The notes under the pieces were generated by a model, which did not search any database, was not told the DNA's origin, and saw only the letters and a list, made by a program, of their open reading frames with translations. Positions 22,413 to 45,946 of a stretch of 64,000 bases of DNA are shown here, in pieces. The stretch comes from an uncultured Myxococcales bacterium (GTDB taxonomy: Bacteria; Myxococcota_A; Polyangia; Fen-1088), in the NCBI GenBank assembly GCA_964540815.1, contig CAZIOH010000007.1, positions 43,867 through 107,866 of the forward strand. Direction: 5' to 3'. Within the stretch, counting starts at the first letter, position 1. Each line of letters begins with the position of its first letter. A program made the translations under genes and the position numbers.

Positions 22413-22839
22413 TGACGCTCTCGGGGTAGGGGAAGGTGCCCCGGCACCCCTTGCAGAAGCGCACCGGGTCAGCGCTCCGCAATTCGCGACCTGATGAGCT
22501 TGCGCACGAGGGTCGTGGTCAGCGGGTCGGCCGGATCGAAGTGAAGCGAGCCCTTCGTCTGGCCGTAGCCCTCGAGGTCACCGGCCAGGGAGCTGAGAAC
22601 CGACCCGCTGAATGGGAGGTAGGAGCACCCTTTGGCGGTCGCTGAGAACCCAGCTACGGGCTGCCTGGGAAACACGGCCGCCCGCGTGCGCGGCTTGTCC
22701 GCGACTCGCCGGCAAGAGATCGCGGATTTCTTTGCGCGTGCGTCAATGACGGCGGCGGCCCAAGAGCGGCAGGACGTCCACACGTTGTTGATTCACTTCG
22801 CCGACTTTCCTTGAGCGTAGGGAATTCAACCCCGGGGTT

Positions 22840-22975
22840 TCCCATTTCGAGGCTCCGAACAGGACGGCCAAAGTCGGCCGTTTGAAACCGCCAGTTAGGG
22901 TGTCACGGCGACTTTGCCGCGGTTTTTGGCTGAATCCGACCAGGAGGTTGGACCGCTCTGCCGGGCAACCATCCT
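22840..22975. repeat. Dispersed repeat element, copy A (most complete, about 135 bp)
   Basis: Shares ttcga-ggctccgaacagRacggYc...tcggccKtttgaaaccgccRRttag with 36515-36600. Shares gactttgcc...tttggctgaatccgRccaggagRttggaccgNtctgScggg with 42290-42350. Lower GC than surroundings. Confidence 0.5.
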
Positions 22976-23227
22976 GTTGCAGGGGGATGACGAGCTCTCG
23001 CGGGGCACGCTCAGCGAGCTCGTGGCGATGGTAAAGAACTTCTGGATGACGCCGGTCTAAACGGCGAGAACGACTCTACGCCCTCTACCTGGAATCGTCG
23101 TCACCGACTCCCTGGAATCGTCGTCACCGGCTCCAACGGGCTCACAACACCTTGACCATCCGCGTACCTTCTGCCTATCGTGAGTTTCTGGTACGCCGGG
23201 ACACAATGAAGGGATGGGGTGGCTAAC

Positions 23228-24019
23228 ATGAGGACGCGATGTCAGTCTTTGGGTCTCTTCTCCATATTGATTTTTAGTGGATTGGGCACCATAAGCTGCG
23301 CAGGCGACGCAGGGACGGTGGAGGGAGGCGCGGACCCCAGCGTGGGGGCAACGGCAAACGCTCTTCATAGTGGGTGTTCCGCGGGGACAGCATGTCAGCC
23401 GACCAACCCTTGCGAGTTTGGGAAGGTGTCTTGTTTGCGAGGAAGGGCAACCTGTGTCGCGACCGGAAATCTGCCCGCCGGAACTGCGTGCGCAACCGGT
23501 TCTGTATGTGACTCAGGCGGAAGTTGCGTCCCTACTTGTCATGCGGGCAGCGCATGTCGGCCTGGGAATCCCTGTAAGTTTGGGGTGATTTCTTGTTCCA
23601 CGGGGGTTTCGGATTGTGTCGAGGCAGGGAACCTACCAGTCGGAACCGCGTGCGGGACCAATTCGACATGCAACTCAGGCGGCAGCTGCGTCTCTGCTTG
23701 TCATGCAGGCGGCGCATGTCAGCCTGGGAATCCCTGTAAGTTTGGGGTGATTTCTTGTTCCACAGGGGTTTCGGTTTGTGTCGAGGCAGGGAACCTACCG
23801 GTCGGAACCGCGTGCGGGACCAATTCGACATGCAACTCAGGCGGCAGCTGCGTCTCTGCTTGTCATGCAGGCGGCGCATGTCAGCCTGGGAATCCCTGTA
23901 AGTTTGGGGCGATTTCTTGTTCCACAGGGGTTTCGGTTTGTGTCGAGGCAGGGAACCTACCAGTCGGAACCGCGTGCGGGACCAATATGAGCTGTGACGG
24001 TAGCGGGACCTGCCGCTAG
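23228..24019 (+). CDS. Lipoprotein made of four 54-aa cysteine-rich repeats (Myxococcus-type Cys-rich repeat)
   Basis: Signal/lipobox FSGLGTISC. Repeats CHAG(G/S)AC(Q/R)PGNPCKFGVISCSTGVS.CVEAGNLPVGTACGTNSTCNSGGSCVSA x4, six conserved Cys each. Confidence 0.7.
   Translation: MRTRCQSLGLFSILIFSGLGTISCAGDAGTVEGGADPSVGATANALHSGCSAGTACQPTNPCEFGKVSCLRGRATCVATGNLPAGTACATGSVCDSGGSCVPTCHAGSACRPGNPCKFGVISCSTGVSDCVEAGNLPVGTACGTNSTCNSGGSCVSACHAGGACQPGNPCKFGVISCSTGVSVCVEAGNLPVGTACGTNSTCNSGGSCVSACHAGGACQPGNPCKFGAISCSTGVSVCVEAGNLPVGTACGTNMSCDGSGTCR
23375..24019. repeat. 162-bp tandem nucleotide repeat (4 units; units 2-4 near-identical) inside the Cys-rich lipoprotein gene
   Basis: tgtcatgcaggcggcgcatgtcagcctgggaatccctgtaagtttgggg... 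recurs at 23699 and 23861 with near-perfect identity. Confidence 0.8.
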
Positions 24020-24420
24020 CTCGCGGACATGAACTGCGCGCTCGGATCCAGCGGCGCAACCGACGCACGAGGCGAGTGTTCAGCGCCGCAGAGAAGTTGC
24101 GGATCATGAAGAAGGCGGACGCCTGCCTTGCCAGCGGTCAACTCGGGGCGGTGGAAGGAATGCTCCGCGAGGAGGGCATCTTCAGCTCGATGCTGTCGAC
24201 GTGACGAGCGCAGCTGAGCGCGTCCGGGGCCGCTGGCCTCGAGCCGCGAAAGACGGGCCGCAAGCCCAAGCTTGATGCGAAAGACCGCCGCAACGCCGAG
24301 CTCGTCAAGCGCACCGCCGTCCTCGAGCGCAAGCTGCACATCGCCAACGCGATCATCGCACTCCAGAAGAGAGCGGATGTGACAGTCAGCACGCCGTCGC
24401 CGGGTGAGCCGCGCGCCATC
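24004..24420 (+). mobile_element. IS3-family transposase OrfA remnant (HTH plus leucine-zipper part only; in-frame TGA; no OrfB)
   Basis: RRVFSAAEKLRIMKKADACLASGQLGAVEGMLREEGIFSSMLST*RAQLSASGAAGLEPRKTGRKPKLDAKDRRNAELVKRTAVLERKLHIANAIIALQKRA. The Trp codon of the conserved STW(R/K)xQ motif is TGA at 24200-24202. No ATG start. Ends against the convergent kinase gene. Confidence 0.55.
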
Positions 24421-24435
24421 CGGCGGGGGCTTTAC

Positions 24436-25791
24436 TCAACGCGGGGGCGGCGTTCGCTCCGAGCCATCGGCGCGCGCAGCCAGCTTCGCATCCAGCTCGC
24501 GAAACCGATCCGCCAGCGCCATGACGAACTTTCCGAGCCAGGTGTCGCTGCCGAGTCGACCGTGAAAGACCTCGCGCGTGACGACCTTGAGGGTGACCTC
24601 GGTGATCGCTTCGACGGTGGCGGTGCGCACGTCACCCGACAGCACGCCCGTTTCGCCGAACACGGCGCCCGGTTCGAGCGTGCGGAGCGCGCGCTTCTCG
24701 CCGTCGATGGTCTTCGAGACGGCGCAGCGCCCGCGCACGATGATGTACGCGGCGTCCGCAAAGTCGCCTTCGCGGATGATCACGGAGCCGGGGGCGAGGA
24801 CCATGGTCGGCAAATTCCAATCGCTGCGAAGGACCTCGTCGACCGCGTGGTGCAACTCGCGCACGCTGGCGAAGCGATCGGCGGGGTCGAGGGCCATGGC
24901 CTTGCGGACGATGCGCGCGAGGGCGGGCGGCGGCGCAATTGCGGCGGCGACCTCGATATCCTCGCATTCTCTCAGCTTGGCGCGGCTCAAGGCCTGGGTC
25001 ACCGATTTGGCATCGAACGGGGCGCGACCCGCCAGGATGAAATAGAGGACCGCCCCGAGACCAAAAATGTCGGTGCGCTCGCTGACGGCATCGACACGCC
25101 CGGTGGCCTGTTCGGGCGACATGTACGCGGGGGTACCGCGCGTGTTCTTGCGGAACCCCGGCGAGGCCGGCACCTCGACCTCCTGCGACTTCTGCGCCGC
25201 GATCCCCCAGTCCATGAGGTAAACCTCGCCGAACTCCCCCACCATGATGTTCGCGGGTTTGAGGTCGCAGTGAATGACCCCACGGCTGTGGGCAAAAGCC
25301 AGCGCGTCGCACACCTTCAAAAATGCCGCCAGGAGCTCGTGTAGCGAATCCGCCCGCGTCTCGCGCTCGACCTGCTCGGCGACGATCGCCTCGAGCGTCC
25401 GACCGCGAACCAGCTTCATCACGATGTAACCGGTCCTGCGCTCTTCGACTACCAGATCGTGAACCGGCACGATGTTGGGATGGTCGAGCTGCGCCATGAC
25501 CCGCGCCTCCTCGACGAACCGCCGCATGAAATCCGGGTTCTTCACCAGGCGCGGCGCCAGGACCTTCGTCGCCACCGAGCGCCGCAAGTTCGGATCGTAA
25601 GCCCGGTGCACCGACCCGGAGCCGCCCGATCCAATCTCCCCCTCATCCACCAGCCGTTCTTCCACTTGCGGCCGCACGAAGGCAGCGGCGGTCGCGTCGC
25701 GCTCCTCGGGAGGGCCGACCAGGGTCGTCGCCGTATATGCATCGCGCCGCCTGGGCAGCTTCGAAGGGCTCTTCCGCGGGGATTTCTTCAA
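24436..25791 (-). CDS. Ser/Thr protein kinase with C-terminal cyclic-nucleotide-binding (cNMP) domain
   Basis: Kinase subdomains GSGGSGSVHRA...ATKVL, HCDLKPANIM, DWGIA, GTPAYMSPE. C-terminal VIIREGDFADAAYIIVRGRCAV...FGE cNMP-binding fold. Confidence 0.8.
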   Translation of the reverse strand: MKKSPRKSPSKLPRRRDAYTATTLVGPPEERDATAAAFVRPQVEERLVDEGEIGSGGSGSVHRAYDPNLRRSVATKVLAPRLVKNPDFMRRFVEEARVMAQLDHPNIVPVHDLVVEERRTGYIVMKLVRGRTLEAIVAEQVERETRADSLHELLAAFLKVCDALAFAHSRGVIHCDLKPANIMVGEFGEVYLMDWGIAAQKSQEVEVPASPGFRKNTRGTPAYMSPEQATGRVDAVSERTDIFGLGAVLYFILAGRAPFDAKSVTQALSRAKLRECEDIEVAAAIAPPPALARIVRKAMALDPADRFASVRELHHAVDEVLRSDWNLPTMVLAPGSVIIREGDFADAAYIIVRGRCAVSKTIDGEKRALRTLEPGAVFGETGVLSGDVRTATVEAITEVTLKVVTREVFHGRLGSDTWLGKFVMALADRFRELDAKLAARADGSERTPPPR

Positions 25792-26046
25792 TCAAGTGCC
25801 TCGCTCGCGCATCGAATCATCGTAGCATCGCCTCACCACCCTCGCCTCAGGCCCGTCTGAAGCCCAAAGACGGCGCCGGTCTGGGCCTGCGTCACCCTGC
25901 CCAGGTCGCCGTTGCGCGTCTCGGCGCCGGCACCGAGACCCGTGTCCTCGCGAAACTCCGTTTGCGCGAATCGATGGAAGCACGCGAGCCGACGCCGCTC
26001 AGGGACCGCGACGGAACACTGCGCATCGTCGATAGCAGAGCGCAAT

Positions 26047-27111
26047 TCAGTACTCGCGGTTGACCATATAATCGAGGAGTGACCGGATGAAATCGAGGTC
26101 GTGACCCGGCGGGGCATCCGAGTACGCGTTCTCGAACTCTTGACGCGCGCCGTTGGCAAAAGCGTGGGCAGCCTGACGCGCGTACTCGAGGCTTCCGTAG
26201 GATCGCAAGAGTTCGTAGATCCAGGCCACCTCACGCTGGAGTCGCTGTGCTCTCGGCTTTGACAAGAACGTCGTCAGTCGCCGCCGTTCCTGTGCGCTGC
26301 TGGTCCTGAAAAGGTGTGCGAGGATAAGCGTCCGCTTGCCTTCGAACAAATCCCCGCCAATTTCCTTTCCGTAGGTACTTCGGTCGCCGGAGAGGTTCAG
26401 GATGTCGTCTTGAATCTGGAACGCAGTACCGAGAAAATAGCCAAATCGATTGAAGCCATCGAGATCGGTCCGGTCGGGCTCAGCGATGAGGGCGCCAATT
26501 CGCGCAGGATGAATAAAGCTGTACCAACCGGTCTTCTTCAGCACCATGAGCAAGTAGTCTTCTTCGGTGGTATGGCAATCGTTGTCGCGAATCCAACCAA
26601 GCTCCATCGCTTGGCCTTCGATTGTTTCGATCGACATGTGATCGAACTCGTCGAAAACCCTGGTCGCGAGTGAGGGGCCCAAGAGCGAGATATTCTGTCT
26701 CAGCAGCCGAACGCTCATCGCGTTCATCGCGTCGCCCACGTTGAGCGCCACGGGTACGCCGTATTGACGGTGCATCGTGGGACCATTCCGCCGGTATTCG
26801 CTTTCGTCCTCGATGTCGTCATGCACCAAGAAAGAGTTATGCAGAAGCTCGATGGCCGCGGCGGATGGCAGGGCACGCTCCTCGCCGCCTCCGAATGCCC
26901 GGCACGTCGCGAGACACAACGCTGGTCGAATGCCTTTGCCTTCGCGTGAGAGCTGGTCGGTGATCAGATCGTAGAGATGTCTCTTCGGCTCGCGGTCCGG
27001 GATGACGCTCAAGATCAGTGGCGTTACCTTTTGCCGATAGGACGCTAGTTGTCGCTCCAAGGTTCCACGATCGACGGAGAGGTCCGGCATAGCCGCGGCA
27101 TACGACGTCAT
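26047..27111 (-). CDS. Polyprenyl diphosphate synthase (trans-isoprenyl diphosphate synthase, GGPPS/FPPS-like)
   Basis: First and second aspartate-rich motifs FLVHDDIED and FQIQDDILN. ATG overlaps the upstream gene's stop (TGATG at 27109-27113). Confidence 0.85.
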   Translation of the reverse strand: MTSYAAAMPDLSVDRGTLERQLASYRQKVTPLILSVIPDREPKRHLYDLITDQLSREGKGIRPALCLATCRAFGGGEERALPSAAAIELLHNSFLVHDDIEDESEYRRNGPTMHRQYGVPVALNVGDAMNAMSVRLLRQNISLLGPSLATRVFDEFDHMSIETIEGQAMELGWIRDNDCHTTEEDYLLMVLKKTGWYSFIHPARIGALIAEPDRTDLDGFNRFGYFLGTAFQIQDDILNLSGDRSTYGKEIGGDLFEGKRTLILAHLFRTSSAQERRRLTTFLSKPRAQRLQREVAWIYELLRSYGSLEYARQAAHAFANGARQEFENAYSDAPPGHDLDFIRSLLDYMVNREY

Positions 27112-36000: not shown

Positions 36001-36254
36001 GTTACGCGGCCCTCGTATAGGATCACGGCGTCCCGGCATACCGCCTGGTAGCTTTCAAGAAGTTCAACAAGATCTTCCGGATCGAGTCTCTTGGATAGAC
36101 CGATCGAGTTGACGAGATCGCAAAAAAGGAAGGTGAGCGAACGCCGTTCACTCTCGAGGAGCCGCGTCCTTAGCGCCATTCCACAGGTGGCGCAGAACCG
36201 TGCTCCAGGCTGGATCGCGGCGCTACATCCTCTGCAAGACCCACTCGAATCCAT
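33018..36254 (-). CDS. Multidomain signalling ATPase: double zinc ribbon, class III adenylate/guanylate cyclase, AAA/NB-ARC ATPase and TPR
   Basis: CRGCSAAIQPGARFCATCG. Cyclase catalytic motifs FLFCDLVNS, GDGVVAFFG, RVGLHTGEAVVG. Walker A GEAGIGKS. Long TPR-like C-terminus. Stop overlaps the start of 32069..33034 by 17 nt. Confidence 0.8.
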   Translation of the reverse strand: MDSSGSCRGCSAAIQPGARFCATCGMALRTRLLESERRSLTFLFCDLVNSIGLSKRLDPEDLVELLESYQAVCRDAVILYEGRVTQFLGDGVVAFFGYPIAHEDDEVRATRAALRVVEDIKVVNQGIGKRLGVELHIRVGLHTGEAVVGQLGPSGSSQLLAVGENVNLAARIQSVAAPDTVVVSLATVKQIEGHFQVEALDPQSLKGFDEMVELFRIVAATGARTKLEAAARGQLTPRVGREREMALLASSWAEVQAGMFRVLLVRGEAGIGKSRLIHDFRQSALASGAEVMECFCSRLTDRAALAPIIEMLSAQVSKRAGDQTTPQAKLAALDDILREQGCSDEEVLPLMSSLFSIPGADEEPIRDLSPGRRRTRTLETIRSWLGSYARRSPVAFLVEDIHWADPSTLDLLDLIINEGSDGRTLICATARPEFRDRWLKPHVRTLDLPRLSGDAAEAIVTHVAGAHALQGLLVRQIVERSEGVPLFVEEVTKAVVESGAMPIANRNELEHSSDGEFVPATVQASIVARFDRLGEGRLVAQFGATIGREFVYPLVRAVTGMSDAELGRHLDRLCHSELVVSDGEPPNAVYTFKHALIQVAIRNTVLRKDRAVLHEKVFAKLRDELPELVEALPEMAAYHAEKAGLPGVAVPLLQEAGMRAFGRTAMAEAAKHLGHAIELVDALSEPARTTTEMELQATIGPAYMATLGWAVSQVERSSERLRDLATACGDVARLYQATWSLWTVYFLRGQLDPALEVAHQVLAMAVKSGDPLLRVTGHHAVGFTHERRGEYAEAIRHADEGLALFDLERERRIVTQFVFSSTCAILWFRGQSQLATGQVKDGIESLSRAAELVDELRHAPSRCFLLSQQCWSLADEDIGKVQRLAQSMRSLAIVEGFALWVHYADIFLAWAAARQHGDAAAAVDKIRAAMAQMHKDRSHVQDNELATILAETLLLAGRPEEAFGALEETLAAARRGQQRHLEAELFRFQGEAAKDMGDLSRAMTFYRQAIDSARSVGARLLELRASLGLARIGGARERAQLKTVFEGFTEGFDHIDMKKASAFLMARATGGELDVLRA

Positions 36255-36514
36255 TGGTCCGCCTCCCTACACGTTGCATCGCGTGATCCAGTAAGCGTAA
36301 GTAACATAAGGTGAGACAGAAACCAAGGGCGCGAATCGACGGATCCAGGGCATGGGACGCCCGCCCGTTCGGGAGTGTCTCCGGACCATGGGAACTGGCA
36401 GCTCATTCGCTCCCTGTGGACAACATCGTGATCCGCGTGAAATCAGGAGACAATTTCGCGAGACTAAGGTGGCCTCGAGAGCACAGGAAATTTGACCCAG
36501 GCTGCCCATTCTAG

Positions 36515-36600
36515 GCTCCCCTTTCGACTATCCGAGGCTCCGAACAGAACGGTCGAGATCGGCCTTTTGAAACCGCCGATTAGAAATCTTGGACGAAGCC
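36515..36600. repeat. Dispersed repeat element, copy B (5' half)
   Basis: cctttcgactatccgaggctccgaacagaacggtcgagatcggccttttgaaaccgccgattag matches copy A 22845-22900. Confidence 0.5.
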
Positions 36601-36728
36601 GCTTCGCGGGCTCTGCGGTGAGCGGATCCCAAGACGAACGAAAGACGGGTGCTGTCGTGTCAGCCCCACCCAACCGCTGATGGAGATGCCCAATCGATGG
36701 TCGTTGGGCGGCGTGGTAAGAGTTCACC

Positions 36729-37883
36729 GTGTCGCGAATGGGAGTGGCGCGGTCGGCGCTGATGGTTGGCCTGGTGACGTTGTTCTGGCTGAGGGCAGCC
36801 AGTGGCCAAGCGGACGATCGAGACGAATCCCTCGTGCGCGATGGAGTGCGGCTGCGGCGAGAGGGCAAGGACCAGGCCGCCTTGGCGGTGTTCCGGGCGG
36901 CATGGCGGGTCAAGCCCACACCGCGTGCTCTTGCGCAAATCGGCTTGGCTGAACTGGCGTTGGGGGACTGGGTGGCGGCCGACCATGACATCGAGTCGGC
37001 CCTCGAGAGCAAGGCCGATCCGTGGATTGCCAAGAACTTCAAGAGCTTGTCTGAATCGCTGGACGCGGTCCAGGGACACCTCGGTCGTCTACAGGTACTC
37101 GGATCACCCGTCGGGGCCATTGTGAGACTCGACGGGAGGAAAGCCGGCTCGCTGCCGATGCCGGAGCCCGCCAGCGTCCCCACGGGCGAGGTTGCAATCT
37201 CGGTAAGCGCTCCCAGCTACATTTCCATAATCCGGAGGGTTACCATTCCCAGTCCCGGCCTCGTGGTCCGGGAGACCATCAACCTGCAACGTGCCGATCC
37301 TGCGACTGACGTTGCCGTTACCTCGCCCCGACTGGAGCCGGGACCTCTCCCAGCGGCAGGGGAACCGCTCACCGCCTTCCGCCCGCCTCCGCCCCGCACC
37401 ATCTCGGCCGCCGAGTCGGCGCGTCAGTCTGAGGAACCAGCGACTGCGCGGACCATGTCCGACGTTGAACCGGTTCCGGCGGAAGGCCAAGAATCTGTCT
37501 GGCCCTGGCAAAAGACCTCCGCGGTGGTGGCGGGCGGAATGGGCGTTCTGTTCCTGGGGGGCGGGATCGGGGCTCAACTTCTGAGTGACTCGAGGAACAG
37601 GGATTTCAACCAGGTTACCGACGCGCCAAACGCGACCGGCCTGTGCAACCGGAAGCTTGACCATTCGGGGGGGGGGCCTTGCTCCGAGCTGCTCGATGAT
37701 GGGAATCGTTTTCATACGGCAGCGGTGATCGGATTCGCCGGCGCGGGCGCCGCGCTCGCAAGCTCGGTGTTGTTCTACTTCATGATCCCCTCTCGGCCCG
37801 ATGAGGCACACCTCACGGCGTTGGCTTTCTGTCAGGTTCCAGGAGAGAGGAGCACGTTATGCGCGCTTTCGGTGAGGTTCTGA
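36729..37883 (+). CDS. Secreted TPR-like plus PEGA-domain protein with C-terminal TM segment
   Basis: Signal peptide MVGLVTLFWLRAASGQA. PEGA-like GAIVRLDGRKAGSLPM...PTGEVAISV. C-terminal hydrophobic stretch. Paralog of 54505..55698. Confidence 0.65.
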   Translation: MSRMGVARSALMVGLVTLFWLRAASGQADDRDESLVRDGVRLRREGKDQAALAVFRAAWRVKPTPRALAQIGLAELALGDWVAADHDIESALESKADPWIAKNFKSLSESLDAVQGHLGRLQVLGSPVGAIVRLDGRKAGSLPMPEPASVPTGEVAISVSAPSYISIIRRVTIPSPGLVVRETINLQRADPATDVAVTSPRLEPGPLPAAGEPLTAFRPPPPRTISAAESARQSEEPATARTMSDVEPVPAEGQESVWPWQKTSAVVAGGMGVLFLGGGIGAQLLSDSRNRDFNQVTDAPNATGLCNRKLDHSGGGPCSELLDDGNRFHTAAVIGFAGAGAALASSVLFYFMIPSRPDEAHLTALAFCQVPGERSTLCALSVRF

Positions 37884-39511
37884 AGCTCGCGCGACCGAGA
37901 GGCGGGGGGACCAAGCGTGAGGCGTCCGCCCTTTCCCGTATCGATTGGTTGACGATTCCCGTGTTCCTCGCGGTGGTATCGGGTGGTGGCGGACCTGCTT
38001 GCACCTCACCCCGTTCGCAGGATCCGGCGATCGGAGGGATCGACGGAGCATCCGACTCTTACCCGCCACCGGACCACGCGATGTTCGGAACGGGCCGTTC
38101 ACCTTCGCCCGTCGACGCCGACCTGGGTACCAACACGCCGTCTCTCGGTGACGGTGACGGCGCCTCCGATCGCCCACCGCCGACCGGCAACGCACGGTCG
38201 AACGAAGCAAGCACCGGTGGCGTGTCTGGCGGCGGGTCGCCCTTCAAGGGGACGGGTGGGTCTTCGGGAGGTACGGGCGGGCCGCAAGCGACCGACACGG
38301 GCGGGACACGCGAGGCCACCGGCGGCTCGTCTGCCGGCACCGGGGGCAGGCCGGCAAACGCCACGGGCGGCGGCGCCGATACAGGCACAGGGGGCAGCCC
38401 AGCCACAACCTGCGCGGCAGGTAGCCACGATTGCGGCGGCGTGTGCATGGCCAGCGACAGCACGGCAAGTTGCGGCGCATCCTGTGTGGCTTGTCCGTCG
38501 GCTCCCACCGGCGGCACGGCGACTTGCGATGGAAAGACCTGTGGATATCTCTGCACAGCAGGTTCCCACCTATGTAACGGCGCGTGCGGGTCGAACAACG
38601 CGCTCGCCACCTGCGGGTCGTCGTGCACGCCATGCTCTGTGCCCGCGAACGGCTCCGCCACCTGCGACGGCACGTCGTGTGGGTTCACCTGCAATCCGGG
38701 GTTTCATGCCTGCGTCACAGGTTGCGTGTCGAACGCCAGTGCAAACAGTTGCGGCGCATCGTCTTGCTCTCCATGCGTGCCCCCCCCGAATAGCACCGCC
38801 ACCTGTGACGGGTTCGGGTGCGGTTTCGTGTGCTCAACGGGCTATACCAACTGCCCTGGGTCCGCGGGATGTCAGAACCTCTCTACCGACCTGATGAACT
38901 GTAGCGTATGTGGCGCGGTCTGCCCTCAACCCGCGTCTGGTTGGGGGTCGGCTGTCTGCGGCGCCCAAGGCTGCGACGTCTCGTGCGCGGCAGGATACTC
39001 CAGATGTACCGGGAGTCCGAGTGGATGCGGAAGGTCGAGCTGGGGATTCGATGACGGTACCACCCAGGAATTTTCGCCCTCCACCGTCCCGGGGCAGGGG
39101 CTGGCGGGATCGATTTCGTCGACGAGCGCTCGGTTCCACAGCGGCGGCAGGTCCCTTGCGATACCGGTCAAAGTCAGCGGGCCGACCGTGCGCGGGTTCA
39201 CAGTTTCCTCGACTTTCTGCAGCCCGGCGGGGGGGTTCTTACCTGCAACGGGAAAGACCGTGAGCATGTGGTTGTACATGGACGGGCCCGCCTTGCCTGC
39301 GGGCACCATCGTCACGAGTTACCTTTGGTGGAAAGATGCGAACAACACGGAATCGCCCAGCATATTGCCAACGACGGGCAGTTGGTTCCAGGTGACGACG
39401 CCCGCTGACACCAGTGGGACCGAAGTCAGCGCGGTGGGAATCTGGGCCTCTTTTGGTGACACGGGCGACTGGTCAGGCACCGTCTACGTCGACGACATCG
39501 TCTTCAGGTGA
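37859..39511 (+). CDS. Secreted Gly/Thr-rich, cysteine-rich repeat protein with C-terminal CBM-like beta-sandwich domain
   Basis: Repeats C.AGSH.C.G.C....ALATCG.SC..C (about 10 units). C-terminal GTVYVDDIVFR shared with the lipoprotein family at 45947, 55680 and 56477. Start uncertain. Confidence 0.55.
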   Translation: MRAFGEVLKLARPRGGGTKREASALSRIDWLTIPVFLAVVSGGGGPACTSPRSQDPAIGGIDGASDSYPPPDHAMFGTGRSPSPVDADLGTNTPSLGDGDGASDRPPPTGNARSNEASTGGVSGGGSPFKGTGGSSGGTGGPQATDTGGTREATGGSSAGTGGRPANATGGGADTGTGGSPATTCAAGSHDCGGVCMASDSTASCGASCVACPSAPTGGTATCDGKTCGYLCTAGSHLCNGACGSNNALATCGSSCTPCSVPANGSATCDGTSCGFTCNPGFHACVTGCVSNASANSCGASSCSPCVPPPNSTATCDGFGCGFVCSTGYTNCPGSAGCQNLSTDLMNCSVCGAVCPQPASGWGSAVCGAQGCDVSCAAGYSRCTGSPSGCGRSSWGFDDGTTQEFSPSTVPGQGLAGSISSTSARFHSGGRSLAIPVKVSGPTVRGFTVSSTFCSPAGGFLPATGKTVSMWLYMDGPALPAGTIVTSYLWWKDANNTESPSILPTTGSWFQVTTPADTSGTEVSAVGIWASFGDTGDWSGTVYVDDIVFR

Positions 39512-39783
39512 CCGAGCGCGCTGCCCTCGCCGAGATCGCCAGGAAGCGCTAGATGAGACGATTTCTCCGGGCGCTTGACAACTTCCGGGGCTGGTGACCG
39601 ATGTCTATGAAGATGACGATTGGGCGGCATGGAGCGCCTCGTAACCCGAGCGCTAGAGCGCTTGAAGCGAACAATAGCCGTGACCTGTGGAAGGGTGGAG
39701 GGATCGATGAGCTCAGTGTGGGAATTGGCATTCACGCGTTTGTGGAAGCGTTGGGGACCGCTGGAACGTCTTGGCCCGCAGCG

Positions 39784-41322
39784 ATGAGAAGTGCCGCCCG
39801 ATCAATGGTATTTTGCGTTGCAATTTCGGGCTGCGGTGATTCGTCAACAGCACCCGTTGCGGGGGTTGCCTCCGGCGGAGAGGGACCGGTTGCATCGGCA
39901 GGCGCCGGCGGGAGGATTGACTCGACAGGTTCCGGCGGCACCGGTAGTGGCGGCGCGGCATCCGACGTTGTGAGCACTGGCGGCGCGGCAACCGACGCTG
40001 CCAGCACGGGCGGCGCGGCACCTGGAGGCTCGAGCCCCGCAGTTCGACTGACGCTTTCAACAGAAGGAATTGCGTCGGCGACTGGAAGAGCCGTTCCGGA
40101 TCCGATAGGCACCAGTTGTGGACCGGGGTGCTTCACGTACGGCGAGGGGCAGACCGTGGAAATCGCGGCGGCCGGAGATCAGAGCGCCCTGTTCGCGGCT
40201 TGGAGCGGCGACTGCGTCGGCCATGGTCAAACGTGCACTCTCATCATGTCCGCAGACAAGAGCGCCCACGCTCATTTCAGACCGAACATGAACATCATGT
40301 TCGTCACCGAGAGTACGCTCGTCCCGGCGACCATCGGATCAGACCTAGCCAGGGCTGATAGCTTGTGCGCCGAATCGGCCGCAGCCGCATGGTTGGGCGG
40401 CTCGACGTGGAAGGCGTGGATGGCAACGAGCAGGGCCACCACGAATATCAACGCGGCGACACACGTCGGTCGGTCGACGACGGGCTGGATTCGCACCGAC
40501 GGAAGACCGTTCGCCACGAGCATGGCGAACCTTCTGGCTGGGAAGATTTACTATCCGCCACGGCTCACCGAACGGAACGCCATTCGGTCTGATGAATACG
40601 CGGTGGTCACTGGAGCGGACACGAATGGCGACGCCATTGAGAACGGGACCTGCGGCGACTGGACCTCCTCCGGATCCGCCTACAACGGAGACGTGACAAC
40701 GACGACTTCCAGTTGGACGTTTCAATTCCTTACCGCCGGCGATTCGTGCCGGACAACGAACTATCCAATCTACTGCTTCGAGAACGACAACGACATGATC
40801 GCGGTTCCGGCGCCGGTTGCCCCCGGGAATGTTCGGCGCGCGTTCTTGTCGGAGTCCCTGTGGGTTCCCGGAGGCGGCGTTGCGGCGGCCGACGCGGTCT
40901 GCCAGACGGATGCGATGACGGCTGGTCTCCCGAACGCGGCCGACTACCGTGCCCTGCTGACCACGTCTGTTGCCGCAACTGATCCGTCCCGCATCAACCT
41001 GGCCGGCCAACCCTGGGCTCGCCTGGACGACGCGCAGCTCGTTGCGACGGCTACCGACCTGGCAGCCCCTACAGCGGACAAGTTGCTCACTTCCCTGAAT
41101 GTCGGTCCGAGCGGAGGCTACATCGCTAACTTTGCCGCCTGGACCGGAACCGCTGCGACTCCTTCGATCAACAACCCGGGGCTCAACTGCAACAACTGGA
41201 CGTCCGGCTCTCCCAGCGTGTCTTCTGGGTGGGGATTGGCCAACGGATCCTCGCCGGCGTGGTGGGCGGGAAACATGCAAGCCTGCAACACTCCGTCGGC
41301 ACTGTACTGCTTCGAGCGATAA
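39784..41322 (+). CDS. Lipoprotein with a Gly/Ser/Thr linker and two homologous ~180-aa domains each ending in (P)(I/L)YCFE
   Basis: MRSAARSMVFCVAISGCG lipobox. Domain ends ...SCRTTNYPIYCFEND and ...ACNTPSALYCFER. Start at 39784 preferred over 39601. Confidence 0.6.
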   Translation: MRSAARSMVFCVAISGCGDSSTAPVAGVASGGEGPVASAGAGGRIDSTGSGGTGSGGAASDVVSTGGAATDAASTGGAAPGGSSPAVRLTLSTEGIASATGRAVPDPIGTSCGPGCFTYGEGQTVEIAAAGDQSALFAAWSGDCVGHGQTCTLIMSADKSAHAHFRPNMNIMFVTESTLVPATIGSDLARADSLCAESAAAAWLGGSTWKAWMATSRATTNINAATHVGRSTTGWIRTDGRPFATSMANLLAGKIYYPPRLTERNAIRSDEYAVVTGADTNGDAIENGTCGDWTSSGSAYNGDVTTTTSSWTFQFLTAGDSCRTTNYPIYCFENDNDMIAVPAPVAPGNVRRAFLSESLWVPGGGVAAADAVCQTDAMTAGLPNAADYRALLTTSVAATDPSRINLAGQPWARLDDAQLVATATDLAAPTADKLLTSLNVGPSGGYIANFAAWTGTAATPSINNPGLNCNNWTSGSPSVSSGWGLANGSSPAWWAGNMQACNTPSALYCFER

Positions 41323-42289
41323 GCTTGCAGGCGATAGCGCTTCGGCAGGAGGCGGGCCTCGACCCATCGAACCCTGCGCGAGATCCCGTACCCGATCGCA
41401 CTCTCTCAGCCTCCCCCACCACCACCCTGTCCCGTGCCTCCGGCCCCTCCGAAACCCCTTCGAAGAACGGTGAAGTTCCCGTCCTCCACTTTGACCCACG
41501 ACTGGAGCGGCCGGTGGACCAAGATTCCCGAGAAGATACCTTCGATGGGTTCACCCACGGCACCACTTCGGATGATCTGAATCGTGCAACAATCCGCCGA
41601 TCCGGCGCTGTTTGAATCTCTGGCACCGGCATCGAGATTGAGGTACTGGATCCCGGGGCATGCGTAAGTTCCTCGCGCCAGCGCCGGAAGGAAAATCTTG
41701 ATGCTGCCGTCGAAGCTGTAGCCGGCCACACCGGACGGATTCACATCGAAGCGCGTGAAAGACCGGGCGAATCCGTTCAACGTGGCCGTCATCGATTCCT
41801 CGGGACCCGCGGGCTGACCAAATTCGGCATCTCCTGCCGGACCCGACGGAAGATTCTCGCCCGCCGGCCGAGAAAGGAAGGCGGGAGGAACGCAGGACTC
41901 TGGCCAAGGCGCCGTGGTGATGGTGCCCCCGCCCGCACCTCCTCCCCAAGCGCTTCGTCAAGATCGCGCCAGACCTGACCTGGTCGGTGCTCCTCCTCGT
42001 CCTGACGGAGACGATCTCACCCTCTGTCCGACTGTCACCAGCCCACCATGGTTCGACAGACCTTGCCACCTACCCGCCGGCCCCCGACCCATCCGGCTCA
42101 TCAACCGGCTCATCCATGACCACCCTCATCGCGACGCTCGAACCTGCCGGTGGCGCTGCGGGGAGAGCTTTGCCCGAAGCCTGCCATCTGTGGCCTGCCA
42201 GGCCGCCAGACACCGCGCTATACGGCCTCACGCGGCGGCTCGCTCGCGCTCCCCGCCTTCCTCGGTCCCACTCACGAAAACCTATCTCT

Positions 42290-42350
42290 TCGTCAACTTT
42301 GCCCGCCATTTGGCTGAATCCGGCCAGGAGATTGGACCGATCTGGCGGGC
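42290..42350. repeat. Dispersed repeat element, copy C (3' half), abutting the truncated SDR gene
   Basis: ctttgcccgccatttggctgaatccggccaggagattggaccgatctggcggg matches copy A 22910-22968. Confidence 0.5.
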
Positions 42351-42528
42351 ATCGCCGCTGCCTGGGCGCCGGCGCGCTCCAGCTCGGCGACGATGGCGTC
42401 GAGCCGCTCCTTGCGACAGGCACCCAGGAAGACCTTCGCCCCCTTGGCGGCCAGGTGGCGAGCGGTGGCCACGCCGAGCCTCTGCTCGCTCCCGTGATCA
42501 CGACGACCTTTCCTGCGATGTTCGACAT
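42349..42528 (-). pseudogene. N-terminal fragment of an SDR oxidoreductase, truncated at the repeat element
   Basis: Reverse strand from 42528 reads MSNIAGKVVVITGAS, then frame-shifted SEQRLGVATARHLAAKGAKVFLGACRKERLDAIVAELERAGAQ. Coding ends at about 42349 where repeat copy C begins. Confidence 0.5.
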
Positions 42529-43165: not shown

Positions 43166-44167
43166 ATGCCTGGCCCTGGATTTCCGGCAGCCCGAATTGG
43201 CGACCCCGTCACGCATGACGGGCTGGTCCCCTCAGGTATCATTGGACCGCAGCTCCCGGTACCTTGCCCACAATGCGGGACGCGGCCGGTCCTGGTCGAA
43301 GGGATGGCTGCTGCGCACGTGGGCGTGTCTTGTGTCTGCTCGGGGGCGACCTCGGTCGGGATAGCCCATCCGCCGCCACCGCCAGGGATCCCTCCGGCCC
43401 CCATCGCGACAGGTTCAGCGTCGGTCTTCATCCATGGGATGCCGGCCGCACGCTGGATCCCGAGCGGCGATCTGGGCGCCTGCGGAGTCTTCCTGGGGGA
43501 CGCCAAGCTGTCCGCTGGTCGGACCGTGTTCATCGGCGGTCCGGGTATGGGAATCGAGCCTGATGGCAGCTTCGTGACTCGGTACAGTCTCGTCATCACG
43601 ATCGCAGGTCCCCCTGAATTCCAGGCCACGGTCGTCAGCCGATTGGACCTCATCTCGACCACGAAGAGTGGGCGCACGGTCCTCGGACGAATCAACGCGA
43701 GCGGCAAGTCGATGAAGATCGTCAAGTACGACGGAGACAACAGCTTCTGCGGGCCGAACAATACCCTCTCCGATATTGCCGGACAGACACCAAAAGGAAA
43801 GCCCGTCTTTGACGGCCGCGGCAAGCCCGTCGAGGGACCGGATGGCAAGACTCAACTACTGGGAACGGGGGCGGGTGCAAACACCACACTCGAGCTGAAT
43901 CCGGATCTTACCCTGAAGAACCCACTCGCCCCTGAGAATCCCCTTCCGAATGACGCAATCCTGATGCACGAACTGAACCACGGCGCGCACCAGATGAGCG
44001 GTCAGGCGGACATGTCACCTCTCGGCGGCGGGTGGACGACTCAGGAGGAGAAGACGACGATTCTCGATGGGGATCCATCCGAGGCAGACTACTTGAAGGA
44101 GCGCGGCTATCCCTACCACCGGATCAATCATGGTCGTGGGTTCGCGCCGAATGATGATTCGCCTTGA
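43166..44167 (+). CDS. PAAR-domain protein with C-terminal HExxH zinc-metallopeptidase-like toxin domain (T6SS-type spike effector)
   Basis: Two literal PAAR motifs (FPAARIGDPVTHDG; GMPAARWIPSGDLGACG). C-terminal ILMHELNHGAHQM. Confidence 0.75.
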   Translation: MPGPGFPAARIGDPVTHDGLVPSGIIGPQLPVPCPQCGTRPVLVEGMAAAHVGVSCVCSGATSVGIAHPPPPPGIPPAPIATGSASVFIHGMPAARWIPSGDLGACGVFLGDAKLSAGRTVFIGGPGMGIEPDGSFVTRYSLVITIAGPPEFQATVVSRLDLISTTKSGRTVLGRINASGKSMKIVKYDGDNSFCGPNNTLSDIAGQTPKGKPVFDGRGKPVEGPDGKTQLLGTGAGANTTLELNPDLTLKNPLAPENPLPNDAILMHELNHGAHQMSGQADMSPLGGGWTTQEEKTTILDGDPSEADYLKERGYPYHRINHGRGFAPNDDSP

Positions 44168-44176
44168 GCCGACGCG

Positions 44177-44896
44177 ATGAGGTCGGCCATCCTGATCGTC
44201 GCGGCATGGTTCGTGTTTGCTGACCTCGGTCAGTCCATGATTTTCAACTTCAGCGCGGAGGCAGCTCCCATGCAACCCGATTCGTCGACAAATTCACCCG
44301 CGAAGCTCGATTGTTCGTTCGATGTCGCGTCCGGTCAGTACCTCAGGGTCAAGGTGAAGCTCATCAATCAAGGCGCGGTCGACTTGTTCGTCCTCAATCA
44401 CCTCTGGAAGCTGAACTCGCAGAGTAGCGACGTTGATGATCCCGAACACGTCTACCGCTTTGTGCGCAACTCGGAGTTGCGGCTCTTGTGGGGGATTGCT
44501 CCGCTGCCCCGGCTCAAGTCAACGCTCTACCGAAATACTCCTTACGCGACCGCTGTGAGACCAAGGTCTTCGCTCGAGTGGGACTATTCGACGAAGATTC
44601 CCGTCTCGGAATACAACGTGTATTTTGCAGGCTCTCATGGCGGCCCCTTTCAGGCCTCGATGGTCGAGCGCGTGGTTGTGATCGTCGAAGTCATAGAAGC
44701 GAAGTCCGGTGTTCTGACGAAGCCTTCCGGGCTTGGTTCTTCGGTCGAAGTCACTGATTCCGATGCCGTCGAGTCTCGCAAGTCCATTGTCTGTGCTTCT
44801 GGGGCGATCGAGCTCGCGACCTTGAGACGAACCGATCAGTTCAGTCGCCTCGACATGCCAAATGAAGCGCCTGAGCCGCTACACCTGGCTCCCTGA
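44177..44896 (+). CDS. Putative cognate immunity protein of the PAAR-HExxH effector
   Basis: Starts 9 nt after the effector stop, same strand. N-terminal hydrophobic signal/anchor MRSAILIVAAWFVFADLG. Lower GC. Confidence 0.5.
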   Translation: MRSAILIVAAWFVFADLGQSMIFNFSAEAAPMQPDSSTNSPAKLDCSFDVASGQYLRVKVKLINQGAVDLFVLNHLWKLNSQSSDVDDPEHVYRFVRNSELRLLWGIAPLPRLKSTLYRNTPYATAVRPRSSLEWDYSTKIPVSEYNVYFAGSHGGPFQASMVERVVVIVEVIEAKSGVLTKPSGLGSSVEVTDSDAVESRKSIVCASGAIELATLRRTDQFSRLDMPNEAPEPLHLAP

Positions 44897-45946
44897 CGAA
44901 GCAACTGACCCGGACGTGGGACGGTACGGAATCTCGCCCTACCCCGGCCCACAGGACACCATCAAGATGGGGACCCACCAGAGCAAAATGGATACCAGCG
45001 CAACCATGGGTTGAGCGATGAGTGCGCGTGCCGCCGACAAGACGTCAGCGACAAATCCGGTCGGCGCTGGCTTGGAATCGGGAATCGCTTCGTCGAAGCT
45101 CATGTCGTCACCCCTCTCACTCTACTCGTCCAGGGCAAAGGGAGGTGAGCTCACCGCGCCACTACCCTCCGACGGGGCGCCGCCTTGCCGTCCTCCGTCA
45201 TGACGTCGAGGACCAACCCATCGGCGATCTCCACTTCGCGCGTCGCCTCTCCGCTGTCGCTTCGTGGTCACGCACGCGGGCAGCACGGCCTGCGCGGGCC
45301 GGCGTCTTGGACCCTGCCCGCGGATTGGGAAGGGCCCTTCGGACGGACGATCTAGTGCTGAACGTCGCTCGCCATCGCAGCAGGCTGGAGGCGTCGGACT
45401 CGGCGGGGGCGGGGCTGGCGCCGCCAGCGCTTTTAGGGGTGTTCGCGAGACCTCCACCGTCGGACCGCCGGTCGCGCTGTCGACCTCGCCCATAATCGAA
45501 CAGGAGGGGTAGTAGTGACTTGCGTGTCGGCCAAACGAGCGCGGACGATCAGGCGCTGGCCATGGTGCCTTTCTAAGAAGGGCGGAACGCTCCTGTCGGA
45601 AGGGCAGGTCTCTCAGGCCTCTCTGGCATTCGAAGAAGGCGAAAGACTGGATCCGAGCGGCGGAACGATCCCGTAGTGTCCCGAGAGCCATCGCCGCCGT
45701 TCACCCCGCCTCGCGGTGGTAGTAGTTCAAGAGGCTGCCGAGATCCGCGCGCTGCTCGTCATTGTGAGCATGACCTCCTTCAGAACCCGAACCTCTTCCT
45801 GCACATAGGCGAGCTTCCGCTGGATCCGCTTCCCGGAAGATGTGGCGGGCAATCGTTCCGCCGTGATGGGCCACCTCATCGCCTGGCGGGAGGCTCGACA
45901 TCTCGGCCCCGTTACGCCGATCTGCCTGCGTGGGCGGACCAGTCGA

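What the first reader, a model, noticed from the sequence alone, without database searches (positions are those of the whole stretch)
22840..42528. Three-copy dispersed repeat element, one copy truncating an SDR gene
Copy A (22840-22975) contains two segments. Copy B (36515-36600) has only the first and copy C (42290-42350) only the second, each at about 85-90% identity. All three are lower in GC than their surroundings. Copy A runs into the stop of a short ORF (...LSELVAMVKNFWMTPV*). Copy C begins exactly where an SDR N-terminal coding region (MSNIAGKVVVITGAS..., 42528 downward) breaks off. This indicates insertion or recombination at the element. The element could be a MITE, the terminal region of an uncharacterised transposon, or a recombination hotspot.
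Basis: seen in the sequence. Interest (0 to 1): 0.5.

Follow-up and report, generated by a model that had tools for sequence, protein, structure and literature searches.

The report
Dispersed repeat with dif-like core
The three look-alike stretches are real copies of a short, non-coding, many-copy repeat that carries a chromosome-resolution-like (dif-like) site, attracts one particular jumping gene, and marks places where strains of this bacterium have rearranged their DNA.

Summary
A profile search finds exactly three copies in the window: A 22812-22964 (complete), B 36478-36609 and C 42224-42349 (partial or hybrid). Metagenome contigs of the same population hold at least 22 further loci. The unit is 153 nt, with sharp ends (5'-GGAGCATAGG...GATCTAGCGGG-3'). 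It is non-coding, has no Rfam match, no terminal inverted repeats and no target duplications, so it is not a classical MITE.

It is also not the end of the transposon found beside many copies. That 1,768-bp IS1202-family IS has its own TGT...ACA inverted repeats and 5-bp duplications. It sits inside nine independent copies at one position. This is exactly 5 bp from a 28-bp dif/xrs-like core, the geometry published for 'dif-site hunter' IS.

Variant forms of the repeat switch sequence at that core. Truncated genes (the SDR, a GH28, a P-type ATPase) abut its ends. All four combinations of two left and two right flanks of copy C exist in the population, with the crossover in a 29-nt identical stretch, which shows recombination between copies.

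How the repeat itself spreads is unresolved. It is a new variant of a known kind and of moderate interest.

The parts
22812..22964 (+). Copy A: complete 153-nt repeat unit (Type I), decayed, about 82% identical to the family consensus
   Evidence: nhmmer E 8e-41 over model 2-152. blastn to the consensus covers positions 3-153 at 82%. It is present at 99.8% identity in every strain contig covering this locus.
22886..22913 (+). dif/xrs-like core of copy A (AACCGCCAGTT-AGGGTG-TCACGGCGACT), degenerate in this old copy
   Evidence: Register taken from the family table. In the consensus the XerD-arm position reads TTACGTCAACT, which is 10/11 to the dif consensus TTATGTHAANT that I recalled from memory.
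36478..36609 (+). Copy B: hybrid unit (Type IV). It has the left arm of the repeat (model 2-89, about 71%, with a 20-nt insertion), then a different right arm GGACGAAGCCGCTTCGCGG (36591-36609).
   Evidence: nhmmer E 7e-14. The same alternative right arm follows the same switch point in an unrelated locus, L104. It is identical in all strain contigs.
42224..42349 (+). Copy C: left-truncated Type III variant. Its last 59-62 nt (42291-42349) are the family's shared right arm. The core-like stretch is 42271-42298.
   Evidence: blastn to the 211-nt Type III unit of L124 gives 89.6% over 134 nt. nhmmer gives E 5e-13 for model 95-153.
42240..42268 (.). 29-nt stretch identical in all four flank combinations. 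The crossover between two repeat copies lies here, bounded by SNPs at 42239 and 42269.
   Evidence: Alignment of X-P (window), Y-P (L007), X-G (L002) and Y-G (L082, L022).
42351..42528 (-). SDR pseudogene fragment: N-terminal roughly 60 codons with one frameshift, cut off at the repeat's right end
   Evidence: adh_short profile positions 1-53 of 195, E 3.5e-12. The two reading frames are seen.

Best explanation
The three copies belong to a family of short, non-coding dispersed repeats carried in many copies by this bacterial population. GC content and gene content suggest Myxococcota, but that was not tested.

The standard unit (Type I) is 153 nt with sharp ends, 5'-GGAGCATAGG...GATCTAGCGGG-3'. 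It is built around a 28-bp core laid out like a Xer recombination site (dif/xrs): an 11-nt arm, a 6-nt spacer and an 11-nt arm. The XerD-arm position is good (TTACGTCAACT). The XerC-arm position is weak (ATCGCCGACTT).

Shown:
1. The family is multi-copy, with unrelated flanks that begin at fixed end positions.
2. A 1,768-bp IS1202-family insertion sequence has landed in at least nine independent copies at one position (within 2 nt), in one orientation. It has TGT...ACA ends, about 25 of its first 32 terminal nt in inverted repeat, a 486-aa transposase and 5-bp duplications. Its left end lies 5 bp from the XerC-arm position. This is the published behaviour of 'dif-site hunter' IS. The repeat is therefore the IS's target, not its remnant.
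3. Variant units (Type III, Type IV, the L114 form) share one arm and switch to other sequence within a few nt of the 6-nt spacer.
4. Genes are cut off at both ends of copies, and the missing halves do not lie on the other side.
5. Two copies have recombined in the population. All four combinations of left flanks X/Y and right flanks P/G exist. The window carries the recombinant X-P.

Inferred:
- The core is, or was, a working site-specific recombination site, which generated the modular variants.
- Homologous recombination between dispersed copies shuffles flanks. The simplest case is an inversion between two inverted copies. This would explain the missing duplications and the unmatched gene halves.
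- The mechanism that first spread the unit is unknown.
For: Family and ends:
- The metagenome scan gave 44 true hits, collapsing to 22 distinct right flanks.
- The consensus search found 12 full copies at 80-97% identity plus partial ones.

The IS:
- Full copy at L128 629-2396.
- NCBIfam ISNCY_2, E 2.7e-133.
- DDE region with Q at E+7 (GRVERMNKTLQ).
- TIR alignment score 32.
- 5-bp direct repeat TCAAC on both sides of the L128 copy.
- IS copies or remnants at the same site in L128/63/78, L065, L091, L121, L125, L098, L032/45/59, L040/48/62 and L044/70. These carry both sequence variants of the right arm.

Target geometry:
- Related IS in other genomes sit 5 bp from good dif-like sites. L141: AGGTGACATAA-GAAATA-TTATCGGACAT + TGCGT. 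L143: AGTGGACGTAA-CAGATG-TTATCGGCGCA + TTTTT. L145: AGTTTACATAA-TATCTG-TTATCGGACAT + TCGCT.
- The repeat reads AGTTGACGTAA-CATTCT-AAGTCGGCGAT + TCAAC in the same register. The distal arm is 10/11 identical to L143.
- Published rules are in PMC10132070 and bioRxiv 10.1101/2022.12.17.520857. They include targets with poor XerC arms.

Modular switches at model positions 85|86, 91|92 and 93|94, and the L114 form with a good XerC arm ACTGCGCGTAA.

Truncated genes.

Four flank combinations. The parental pair occurs together in sample ERZ27245405 (L002 + L009). The recombinant pair occurs together in Ga0265331 (L011 + L022).
Against: - The XerC-arm position of the standard unit lacks the inner ATAA/GTAA motif.
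- The partner sequences in Types III and IV are not convincing Xer arms, so Xer action on these copies is unproven.
- The one rearrangement that could be dated (X/Y x P/G) crossed over left of the core (42240-42268 against core 42271-42298). That event was homologous recombination, not site-specific.
- Nearly all loci were fetched through a right-arm pattern, so 'the IS always sits in the repeat' is biased. Only L128 was found independently.
- All data are metagenome contigs from several samples. Copy number per genome and relative orientation of copies are unknown.
- No empty site was found, so mobility of the unit is inferred from flanks only.
- Per-position conservation of the core (0.89-0.95) is only slightly above the rest (0.81-0.92).
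Confidence: 0.6

Rival explanations
1. It is an ordinary non-autonomous transposon (MITE-like) of a family that makes no inverted repeats or duplications, such as IS110/IS1111, IS200/IS605, IS91 or IS607. Its autonomous parent was not sampled. The dif-like core is incidental and merely happens to attract the IS.
For: - Sharp ends with unrelated flanks at at least 22 loci.
- Insertion into genes.
- Clustering with other IS debris.
- Two subfamilies (I and III) share the right 62 nt and the left tetranucleotide GGAG. This is what end recognition by one enzyme would give.
Against: - No conserved target motif at either flank, as IS200/605, IS91 or IS110 would give.
- No parent element with these ends in about 0.9 Mb of population contigs.
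- It does not explain why variant units switch exactly at the core.
- It does not explain why no copy has matching gene halves on its two sides.
Confidence: 0.25
2. The repeats are solo ends and an internal-deletion derivative (a true MITE) of the ISNCY/IS1202-family IS found beside them.
For: The IS is flanked on both sides by the two halves of the unit. A TCAAC microhomology sits at the apparent deletion junction. This was my own working model up.
Against: - The IS has its own TGT...ACA ends, a strong TIR and 5-bp direct repeats inside the unit.
- Relatives of the IS in other genomes have the same ends without any such flanking repeat.
- The unit's own tips are not TGT and share no inverted repeat.
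- Junction positions vary by 1-2 nt between copies, as for independent insertions.
Confidence: 0.04
3. The similarity is what remains of segmental duplications of upstream regions of paralogous gene clusters (PEGA / Cys-rich / DUF1554). It is not a discrete element.
For: Copies A and B lie upstream of secreted-protein genes, and the L002 variant of copy C lies upstream of a second PEGA/Stig1-like pair.
Against: At at least 22 loci the similarity stops at the same two end positions, with unrelated genes beyond them (ATPase, methyltransferase, protease, SDR, GH28).
Confidence: 0.02
4. It is a small RNA gene or a cis-regulatory or terminator-like element kept by selection.
For: It contains short hairpins: ACGGCCGAAATCGGCCGT and TGGCTGAATCCGGCCA. 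It is often intergenic.
Against: - No Rfam match at gathering score or at E<=1.
- Folding is no better than shuffles (z -0.54).
- Hairpin variants accumulate mismatches rather than compensatory pairs.
- Copies interrupt genes.
Confidence: 0.05

Closest known systems
Secondary chromosomal dif-like sites and plasmid pdif sites of Acinetobacter (boundaries of 'dif modules')
   Same: - A 28-bp XerC-spacer-XerD-type core present many times in one replicon set.
- It is hit by IS1202-family IS 5 bp from the XerC side in a fixed orientation.
- DNA on either side is exchanged in modules (PMC10132070; titles and abstracts).
   Different: - Here the core is embedded in a conserved 153-nt unit with 74-nt and 51-nt arms and sharp outer ends.
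- The copies are chromosomal, in a GC-rich soil or rhizosphere bacterium.
- They are mostly in direct rather than alternating orientation.
- The XerC arm is poor.
- Xer action is not shown.
ISAjo2 / ISAba32 group of the IS1202 family ('dif-site hunters'), for the associated IS
   Same: - TGT...ACA ends.
- An extra internal copy of the inner IR motif near each end.
- 5-bp duplication.
- A single 486-aa HTH + DDE transposase with Q at E+7.
- Left end 5 bp from the XerC-arm position.
   Different: - At 1,768 bp it is longer than the 1.5-kb Acinetobacter members.
- Its preferred target is a dispersed repeat, not a plasmid pdif or the terminus dif.
- An internal-inversion variant exists (L040/L062).
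MITEs and other short dispersed bacterial repeats (Correia/NEMIS, ERIC, RUP, BOX, REP/BIME)
   Same: It is short, non-coding, multi-copy and lower in GC than the genome. It is found in intergenic DNA and inside genes, and it serves as a substrate for rearrangement and as a target for IS (REP elements also attract specific IS).
   Different: - No terminal inverted repeats and no target duplication, unlike MITEs.
- Not a palindromic unit, unlike REP.
- No overall hairpin.
Integron attC sites / cassette arrays
   Same: Recombination-site-sized units (about 60-150 nt) occur in the same orientation at 1.2-2.6 kb spacing in some contigs (L070, L062, L104). Variable DNA lies between them.
   Different: No R''/L''/L'/R' palindromic architecture, no GTTRRRY core and no integrase nearby. 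The intervening DNA is largely IS debris and gene fragments.

Membership tests
MITE (miniature inverted-repeat transposable element) | Terminal inverted repeats | tested here: not met
   Best local alignment of the first 50 nt against the reverse complement of the last 50 nt scores 5, against a shuffle mean of 6.3.
MITE (miniature inverted-repeat transposable element) | Target-site duplication flanking each copy | tested here: not met
   For 12 complete copies the longest shared word between the flanks is no better than shuffles. An all-against-all test of 22 x 22 flanks gives only chance-level 6-7-mers.
MITE (miniature inverted-repeat transposable element) | Short, non-coding, multi-copy, with unrelated flanks | tested here: met
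   The unit is 153 nt. There are at least 22 distinct right and 23 distinct left flanks. Differences between copies A and C are non-synonymous in the shared reading frame (my reading).
MITE (miniature inverted-repeat transposable element) | Ends shared with an autonomous parent IS | tested here: not met
   The only IS associated with it has different ends (TGTAGCGG... / ...CTTGACA) lying inside the unit.
IS1202 family, ISAjo2/ISAba32 group (the associated IS, not the repeat) | Length 1.3-2.0 kb with a single 400-500-aa transposase, HTH + DDE with Q seven residues after E | tested here: met
   1,768 bp; 486 aa; D at QIDGS (residue 142), D at YSDK (residue 203), GRVERMNKTLQ. NCBIfam ISNCY_2 scores 444.7 bits against a cut-off of 250. 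Family criteria.
IS1202 family, ISAjo2/ISAba32 group (the associated IS, not the repeat) | 5'-TGT...ACA-3' ends with imperfect TIRs, and a second internal copy of the inner IR motif | tested here: met
   IRL is TGTAGCGGCAAAGTTCAAATGTCC. IRR (reverse complement) is TGTCAAGGCTAAGTAGAAATGTCC. AAGTAGAAATGTCCGC is repeated near both ends. Criteria.
IS1202 family, ISAjo2/ISAba32 group (the associated IS, not the repeat) | 5-6-bp target duplication | tested here: met
   L128 TCAAC, L141 TGCGT and L144 TTGGC, each seen on both sides.
IS1202 family, ISAjo2/ISAba32 group (the associated IS, not the repeat) | [quoted passage not shown] | tested here: met
   Good dif-like sites in that register in L141, L143 and L145. 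The repeat's core is in the same register in all nine interrupted copies.
Xer recombination site (dif / xrs / pdif) | 11-6-11 layout with a XerD arm close to TTATGTHAANT | tested here: met
   The consensus reads TTACGTCAACT, 10/11 to the recalled consensus. It is 10/11 to the arm of the L143 target and 9/11 to that of L141. The dif consensus itself is recalled from the literature, not computed here.
Xer recombination site (dif / xrs / pdif) | XerC arm ending in the inner ATAA-type motif, palindromic with the XerD arm | tested here: not met
   The standard unit has ATCGCCGACTT. Only the L114 form has ACTGCGCGTAA. Published IS targets with poor XerC arms exist.
Xer recombination site (dif / xrs / pdif) | Binding and strand exchange by XerC/XerD | not testable with these tools
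   The only indirect evidence is that variant units switch sequence at model positions 85|86, 91|92 and 93|94, around the 6-nt spacer.
REP / BIME | Short imperfect palindrome units, intergenic, often in clusters of alternating orientation | tested here: not met
   The unit is not palindromic. Copies interrupt genes.
Integron attC | R''-L''...L'-R' imperfect palindrome with a GTTRRRY core | tested here: not met
   No such symmetry in the fold or in the inverted-repeat test. Reading the consensus, no GTTRRRY lies at either boundary.
IS200/IS605-type or IS91-type derivative | Conserved tetra- or pentanucleotide target abutting one end | tested here: not met
   Flank bases next to both ends are variable.

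The most novel reading that the evidence does not exclude
The repeats are the working recombination sites of a chromosomal, Xer-type (or other tyrosine-recombinase) module-shuffling system in a myxobacterium-like genome. This would be an analogue of Acinetobacter pdif modules or integron cassettes. DNA segments bounded by directly repeated 153-nt sites would be excised, exchanged and re-inserted at the dif-like core. A dedicated IS1202-family 'site hunter' has co-evolved with them.
Probability: 0.2. Interest if true: 0.8.

Novelty: new variant of a known kind. Interest (0 to 1): 0.5.

Why it matters
If the core is a working recombination site, Xer-site-based module shuffling would extend from Acinetobacter plasmids to the chromosome of an unrelated, GC-rich environmental lineage. 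It would also offer a natural system for studying how IS1202-family transposases find dif-like sites.

Even on the conservative reading, three things follow:
- The repeat explains why contigs of this population break or differ at these points.
- It documents a strain-level rearrangement with a mapped 29-nt crossover.
- It explains the pseudogene fragments in the window.

Tried and rejected
1. Genome-contig scan with TTGGCTGAATCCGNCCAGGAG. It returned only one chance hit, in a Chloroflexota MAG with no flanking similarity.
2. Rfam at gathering score on the whole window, and at E<=1 on a young copy: nothing.
3. PLSDB plasmids, distant blastn with the consensus: no match.
4. My working model up to one search was that the unit is an internal-deletion MITE of the ISNCY IS. 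I dropped it when the family paper pointed to TGT ends, and the true IS ends, TIR and 5-bp repeats were found inside the unit.
5. Search for an empty site of copy A through the neighbouring kinase gene. All strains carry the copy. The 266-aa neighbour is not on record.
6. Search for the missing halves of the truncated genes next to other copies' left ends: none recognised.
7. Search for solitary inverted tips that could mark a larger parent element: one uninformative hit.
8. A second IS-like transposase fragment (HTH_32/HTH_21 N-terminus) lies about 480 nt from the unit in two loci, and I considered it as a possible parent. The fragments are only 50% identical to each other and too short to classify, and the link is not consistent elsewhere.
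9. Organism name: the exact-sequence cluster look-up returned no taxon.
10. Promoter reading of the consensus by eye: no convincing sigma-70 or sigma-54 motif. Not pursued with the scanner.
Full report
**1. The observation**

The three stretches are really similar.
- The repeat finder pairs 22848-22898 with 36533-36583 (84%) and 22925-22967 with 42309-42351 (91%).
- A permissive in-window blastn gives E 2.5e-9 and 6e-12 and finds nothing else.
- A profile built later from 12 full copies on other contigs finds exactly three hits in the window: 22812-22964 (E 8e-41), 36478-36585 (E 7e-14) and 42291-42349 (E 5e-13).
- GC is 0.54-0.61 against 0.66 for the window.
- The SDR fragment is real. It matches adh_short profile positions 1-53 of 195, is frameshifted and ends at the repeat.
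- The 30 residues after copy A match no family.

**2. Other copies**

Exact-protein look-ups showed that the window's population is present in many ENA and JGI metagenome assemblies.

44 of the hits have extended similarity, and they collapse to 22 distinct right flanks.

Alignment defines a 153-nt unit ('Type I'):

GGGAGCATAGGAAATTTAACCCAGGGTTTCCCCTTTCGAGGCTCCGAACAGCACGGCCGAAATCGGCCGTTGAAATCGCCGACTTAGAATGTTACGTCAACTTTGCCGCCGTTTTGGCTGAATCCGGCCAGAAAGCTGGACCGATCTAGCGGG

Similarity stops abruptly at both ends. Twelve full copies are 80-97% identical to this consensus. Copy A is a full but old copy (82%).

**3. The repeat is not a MITE and not an RNA family**

- The two ends share no inverted repeat: score 5 against a shuffle mean of 6.3.
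- No target duplication is detectable, either within copies or between the flanks of different copies.
- The unit folds no better than shuffled sequence (z -0.54).
- Rfam finds nothing.
- PLSDB plasmids hold nothing similar.

**4. The neighbouring transposon**

Seven right arms are followed on the left by the start of a transposase gene. The protein is an ISNCY_2 transposase (444.7 bits, E 2.7e-133).

A 99%-identical full-length protein, P0001, led to a 2,860-nt contig, L128, holding a complete copy. I first read the 153-nt unit as an internal-deletion derivative of this IS. The IS1202-family papers state that family ends are 5'-TGT...ACA-3' and that one subgroup makes 5-6-bp duplications and sits 5 bp from the XerC side of dif-like sites.

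Re-reading L128 with that in mind gives the following.
- The IS runs from 629 (TGTAGCGGCAAAGTTCAAATGTCC...) to 2396 (...GGACATTTCTACTTAGCCTTGACA), which is 1,768 bp.
- Its TIR alignment scores 32.
- It has a second internal copy of the inner repeat motif.
- It is flanked by TCAAC on both sides.
- The transposase has the family's Q at E+7.

Relatives at 70-77% protein identity in unrelated contigs have the same ends and 5-bp repeats (L141 TGCGT, L144 TTGGC). None has any trace of the 153-nt unit. The unit is therefore the target, not a derivative.

IS copies or remnants occupy the same position (within 2 nt) in nine independent units. These units belong to both sequence variants of the right arm. 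The IS copies themselves are 99-100% identical, which fits recent independent insertions.

One caveat applies. All of these loci except L128 were fetched through the right-arm pattern.

**5. The dif-like core**

In transposase orientation, the relatives' left flanks read as follows. The first three are good XerD-spacer-XerC sites, each followed by the 5-bp duplication.

| Locus | Distal arm | Spacer | Proximal arm | 5-bp duplication |
|---|---|---|---|---|
| L141 | AGGTGACATAA | GAAATA | TTATCGGACAT | TGCGT |
| L143 | AGTGGACGTAA | CAGATG | TTATCGGCGCA | TTTTT |
| L145 | AGTTTACATAA | TATCTG | TTATCGGACAT | TCGCT |
| The repeat | AGTTGACGTAA | CATTCT | AAGTCGGCGAT | TCAAC |

- The repeat's distal (XerD) arm is 10/11 identical to that of L143. 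On the other strand it reads TTACGTCAACT, 10/11 to the dif consensus TTATGTHAANT as I recall it.
- The proximal arm keeps TCGGCG but lacks the inner TTAT.
- Published targets of such IS include sites with poor XerC arms.
- One contig, L114, carries the family's right arm joined to a good XerC arm: ACTGCGCGTAA-AAAACG-TTACGTCAACT.

**6. Modular variants**

- Type III is a 211-nt unit starting GGAGGGCCCAGCTCC, seen at four loci. It shares only the last 62 nt with Type I, from the first base of the XerD-arm position (91|92).
- Window copy B and the unrelated locus L104 share a different right arm, GGACGAAGCCGCTTCGCGG, from 93|94.
- Another partial copy begins at 85|86.

The switch points thus cluster on the 6-nt spacer (86-91), where Xer enzymes exchange strands. 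The partner sequences are mostly not convincing Xer arms, so I treat site-specific exchange as likely (about 0.6) and not as shown.

**7. Copy C and strain variation**

Contigs carrying the PAAR/Peptidase_M91 toxin gene to the right of copy C fall into two classes. One has the window's left flank X. The other has a different flank Y, which joins at 42224.

Contig L002 has flank X, then a right-arm variant, then entirely different DNA: a GH28 C-terminal fragment, a second PEGA/Stig1-like pair, DUF1801 and a lactamase_B gene. L082 and L022 have Y followed by that same GH28 side.

All four combinations therefore exist. The SNPs at 42239 and 42269 place the crossover in a 29-nt identical stretch. 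X-G and Y-P occur together in one sample, and X-P and Y-G occur together in another. This is what an inversion between two inverted copies predicts, but orientation could not be checked and mixed strains are not excluded.

The crossover lies left of the core, so this particular event was homologous recombination.

**8. Truncated genes**

| Gene fragment | Which end of the repeat it abuts | Locus |
|---|---|---|
| SDR N-terminus | right | copy C |
| GH28 C-terminus | right | L002 |
| P-type ATPase N-terminus | right | L075/L059 |
| Methyltransferase N-terminus | left | L014 |
| Trypsin-like C-terminal part | left | L062 |

In no case does the other side of the unit continue the gene. At one right flank, two contigs carry different left parts (Type I in L075, Type III in L059/L124). 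Flank shuffling by recombination between copies would explain both this and the absence of duplications. It is an inference.

**9. Verdict**

- It is wrong on two points: the repeat is neither a classical MITE nor the end of the neighbouring transposon.
- The associated IS is a new member of the IS1202 'dif-site hunter' group.
- The repeat is a new variant among short dispersed repeats and secondary dif-like sites.
- How the unit spreads remains open.

Noticed in passing
window 23390-24013 (inside ORF 23219-24019, + strand): There are 162-nt tandem repeats (three to four units, 72-88% identical) inside a Cys-rich secreted-protein gene. The number of units differs between strain contigs (209-aa and 266-aa products).
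   Followed up: partly
window 43166-44896: A PAAR-motif protein with a Peptidase_M91 C-terminal domain (333 aa) is followed by a 239-aa ORF that could be its immunity partner. This polymorphic-toxin locus lies immediately right of copy C and the SDR fragment. The same gene is found on more than 22 contigs with two different left contexts.
   Followed up: partly
window 45669-45830: This is another short repeat. It matches L002 19299-19372 (92%) and a 235-nt repeat present twice in the Y flank of L007 (88-90%). It is unrelated to the 153-nt family.
   Followed up: no
window 22475-22658 (- strand): A DUF1801 pseudogene fragment, 86% identical at DNA level to the intact 143-aa gene in L002 19718-20149. 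Its N-terminal half is missing just left of copy A.
   Followed up: partly
L040 3753-4513 and L062 8559-8890: This is a variant of the IS in which the right-end tip (TGTCAAGGCTAAGTAGAAATGTCCGC) is fused directly to the 5' leader and transposase start. It is as if the internal segment had flipped between the inverted AAGTAGAAATGTCCGC motifs.
   Followed up: partly
L007 1641-1931, L070 3929-4240, L075 246-557, L032 8477-8785: Fragments of a second IS-like transposase N-terminus (HTH_32/HTH_21; GRPRK...WGY motif) recur near copies of the repeat. In two loci they lie about 480 nt from the unit in the same relative orientation. The family could not be assigned.
   Followed up: partly
L109 3069-3244: A repeat copy carries a 23-nt insertion at the IS target position that ends in TGTCAAGGC, the tip of the IS right end. 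It looks like a footprint left by loss of the IS.
   Followed up: no
window 53078-54173 and 57832-58927: These are long inverted repeats (about 1.05 kb in three blocks, 70-73% complementary). They probably come from paralogous genes on opposite strands.
   Followed up: no
window 29000-33034 (- strand): An encapsulin (Linocin_M18) gene lies next to two DUF3237 genes, a globin-domain gene, an amine-oxidase-like flavoprotein and a polyprenyl synthase, between copies A and B.
   Followed up: no
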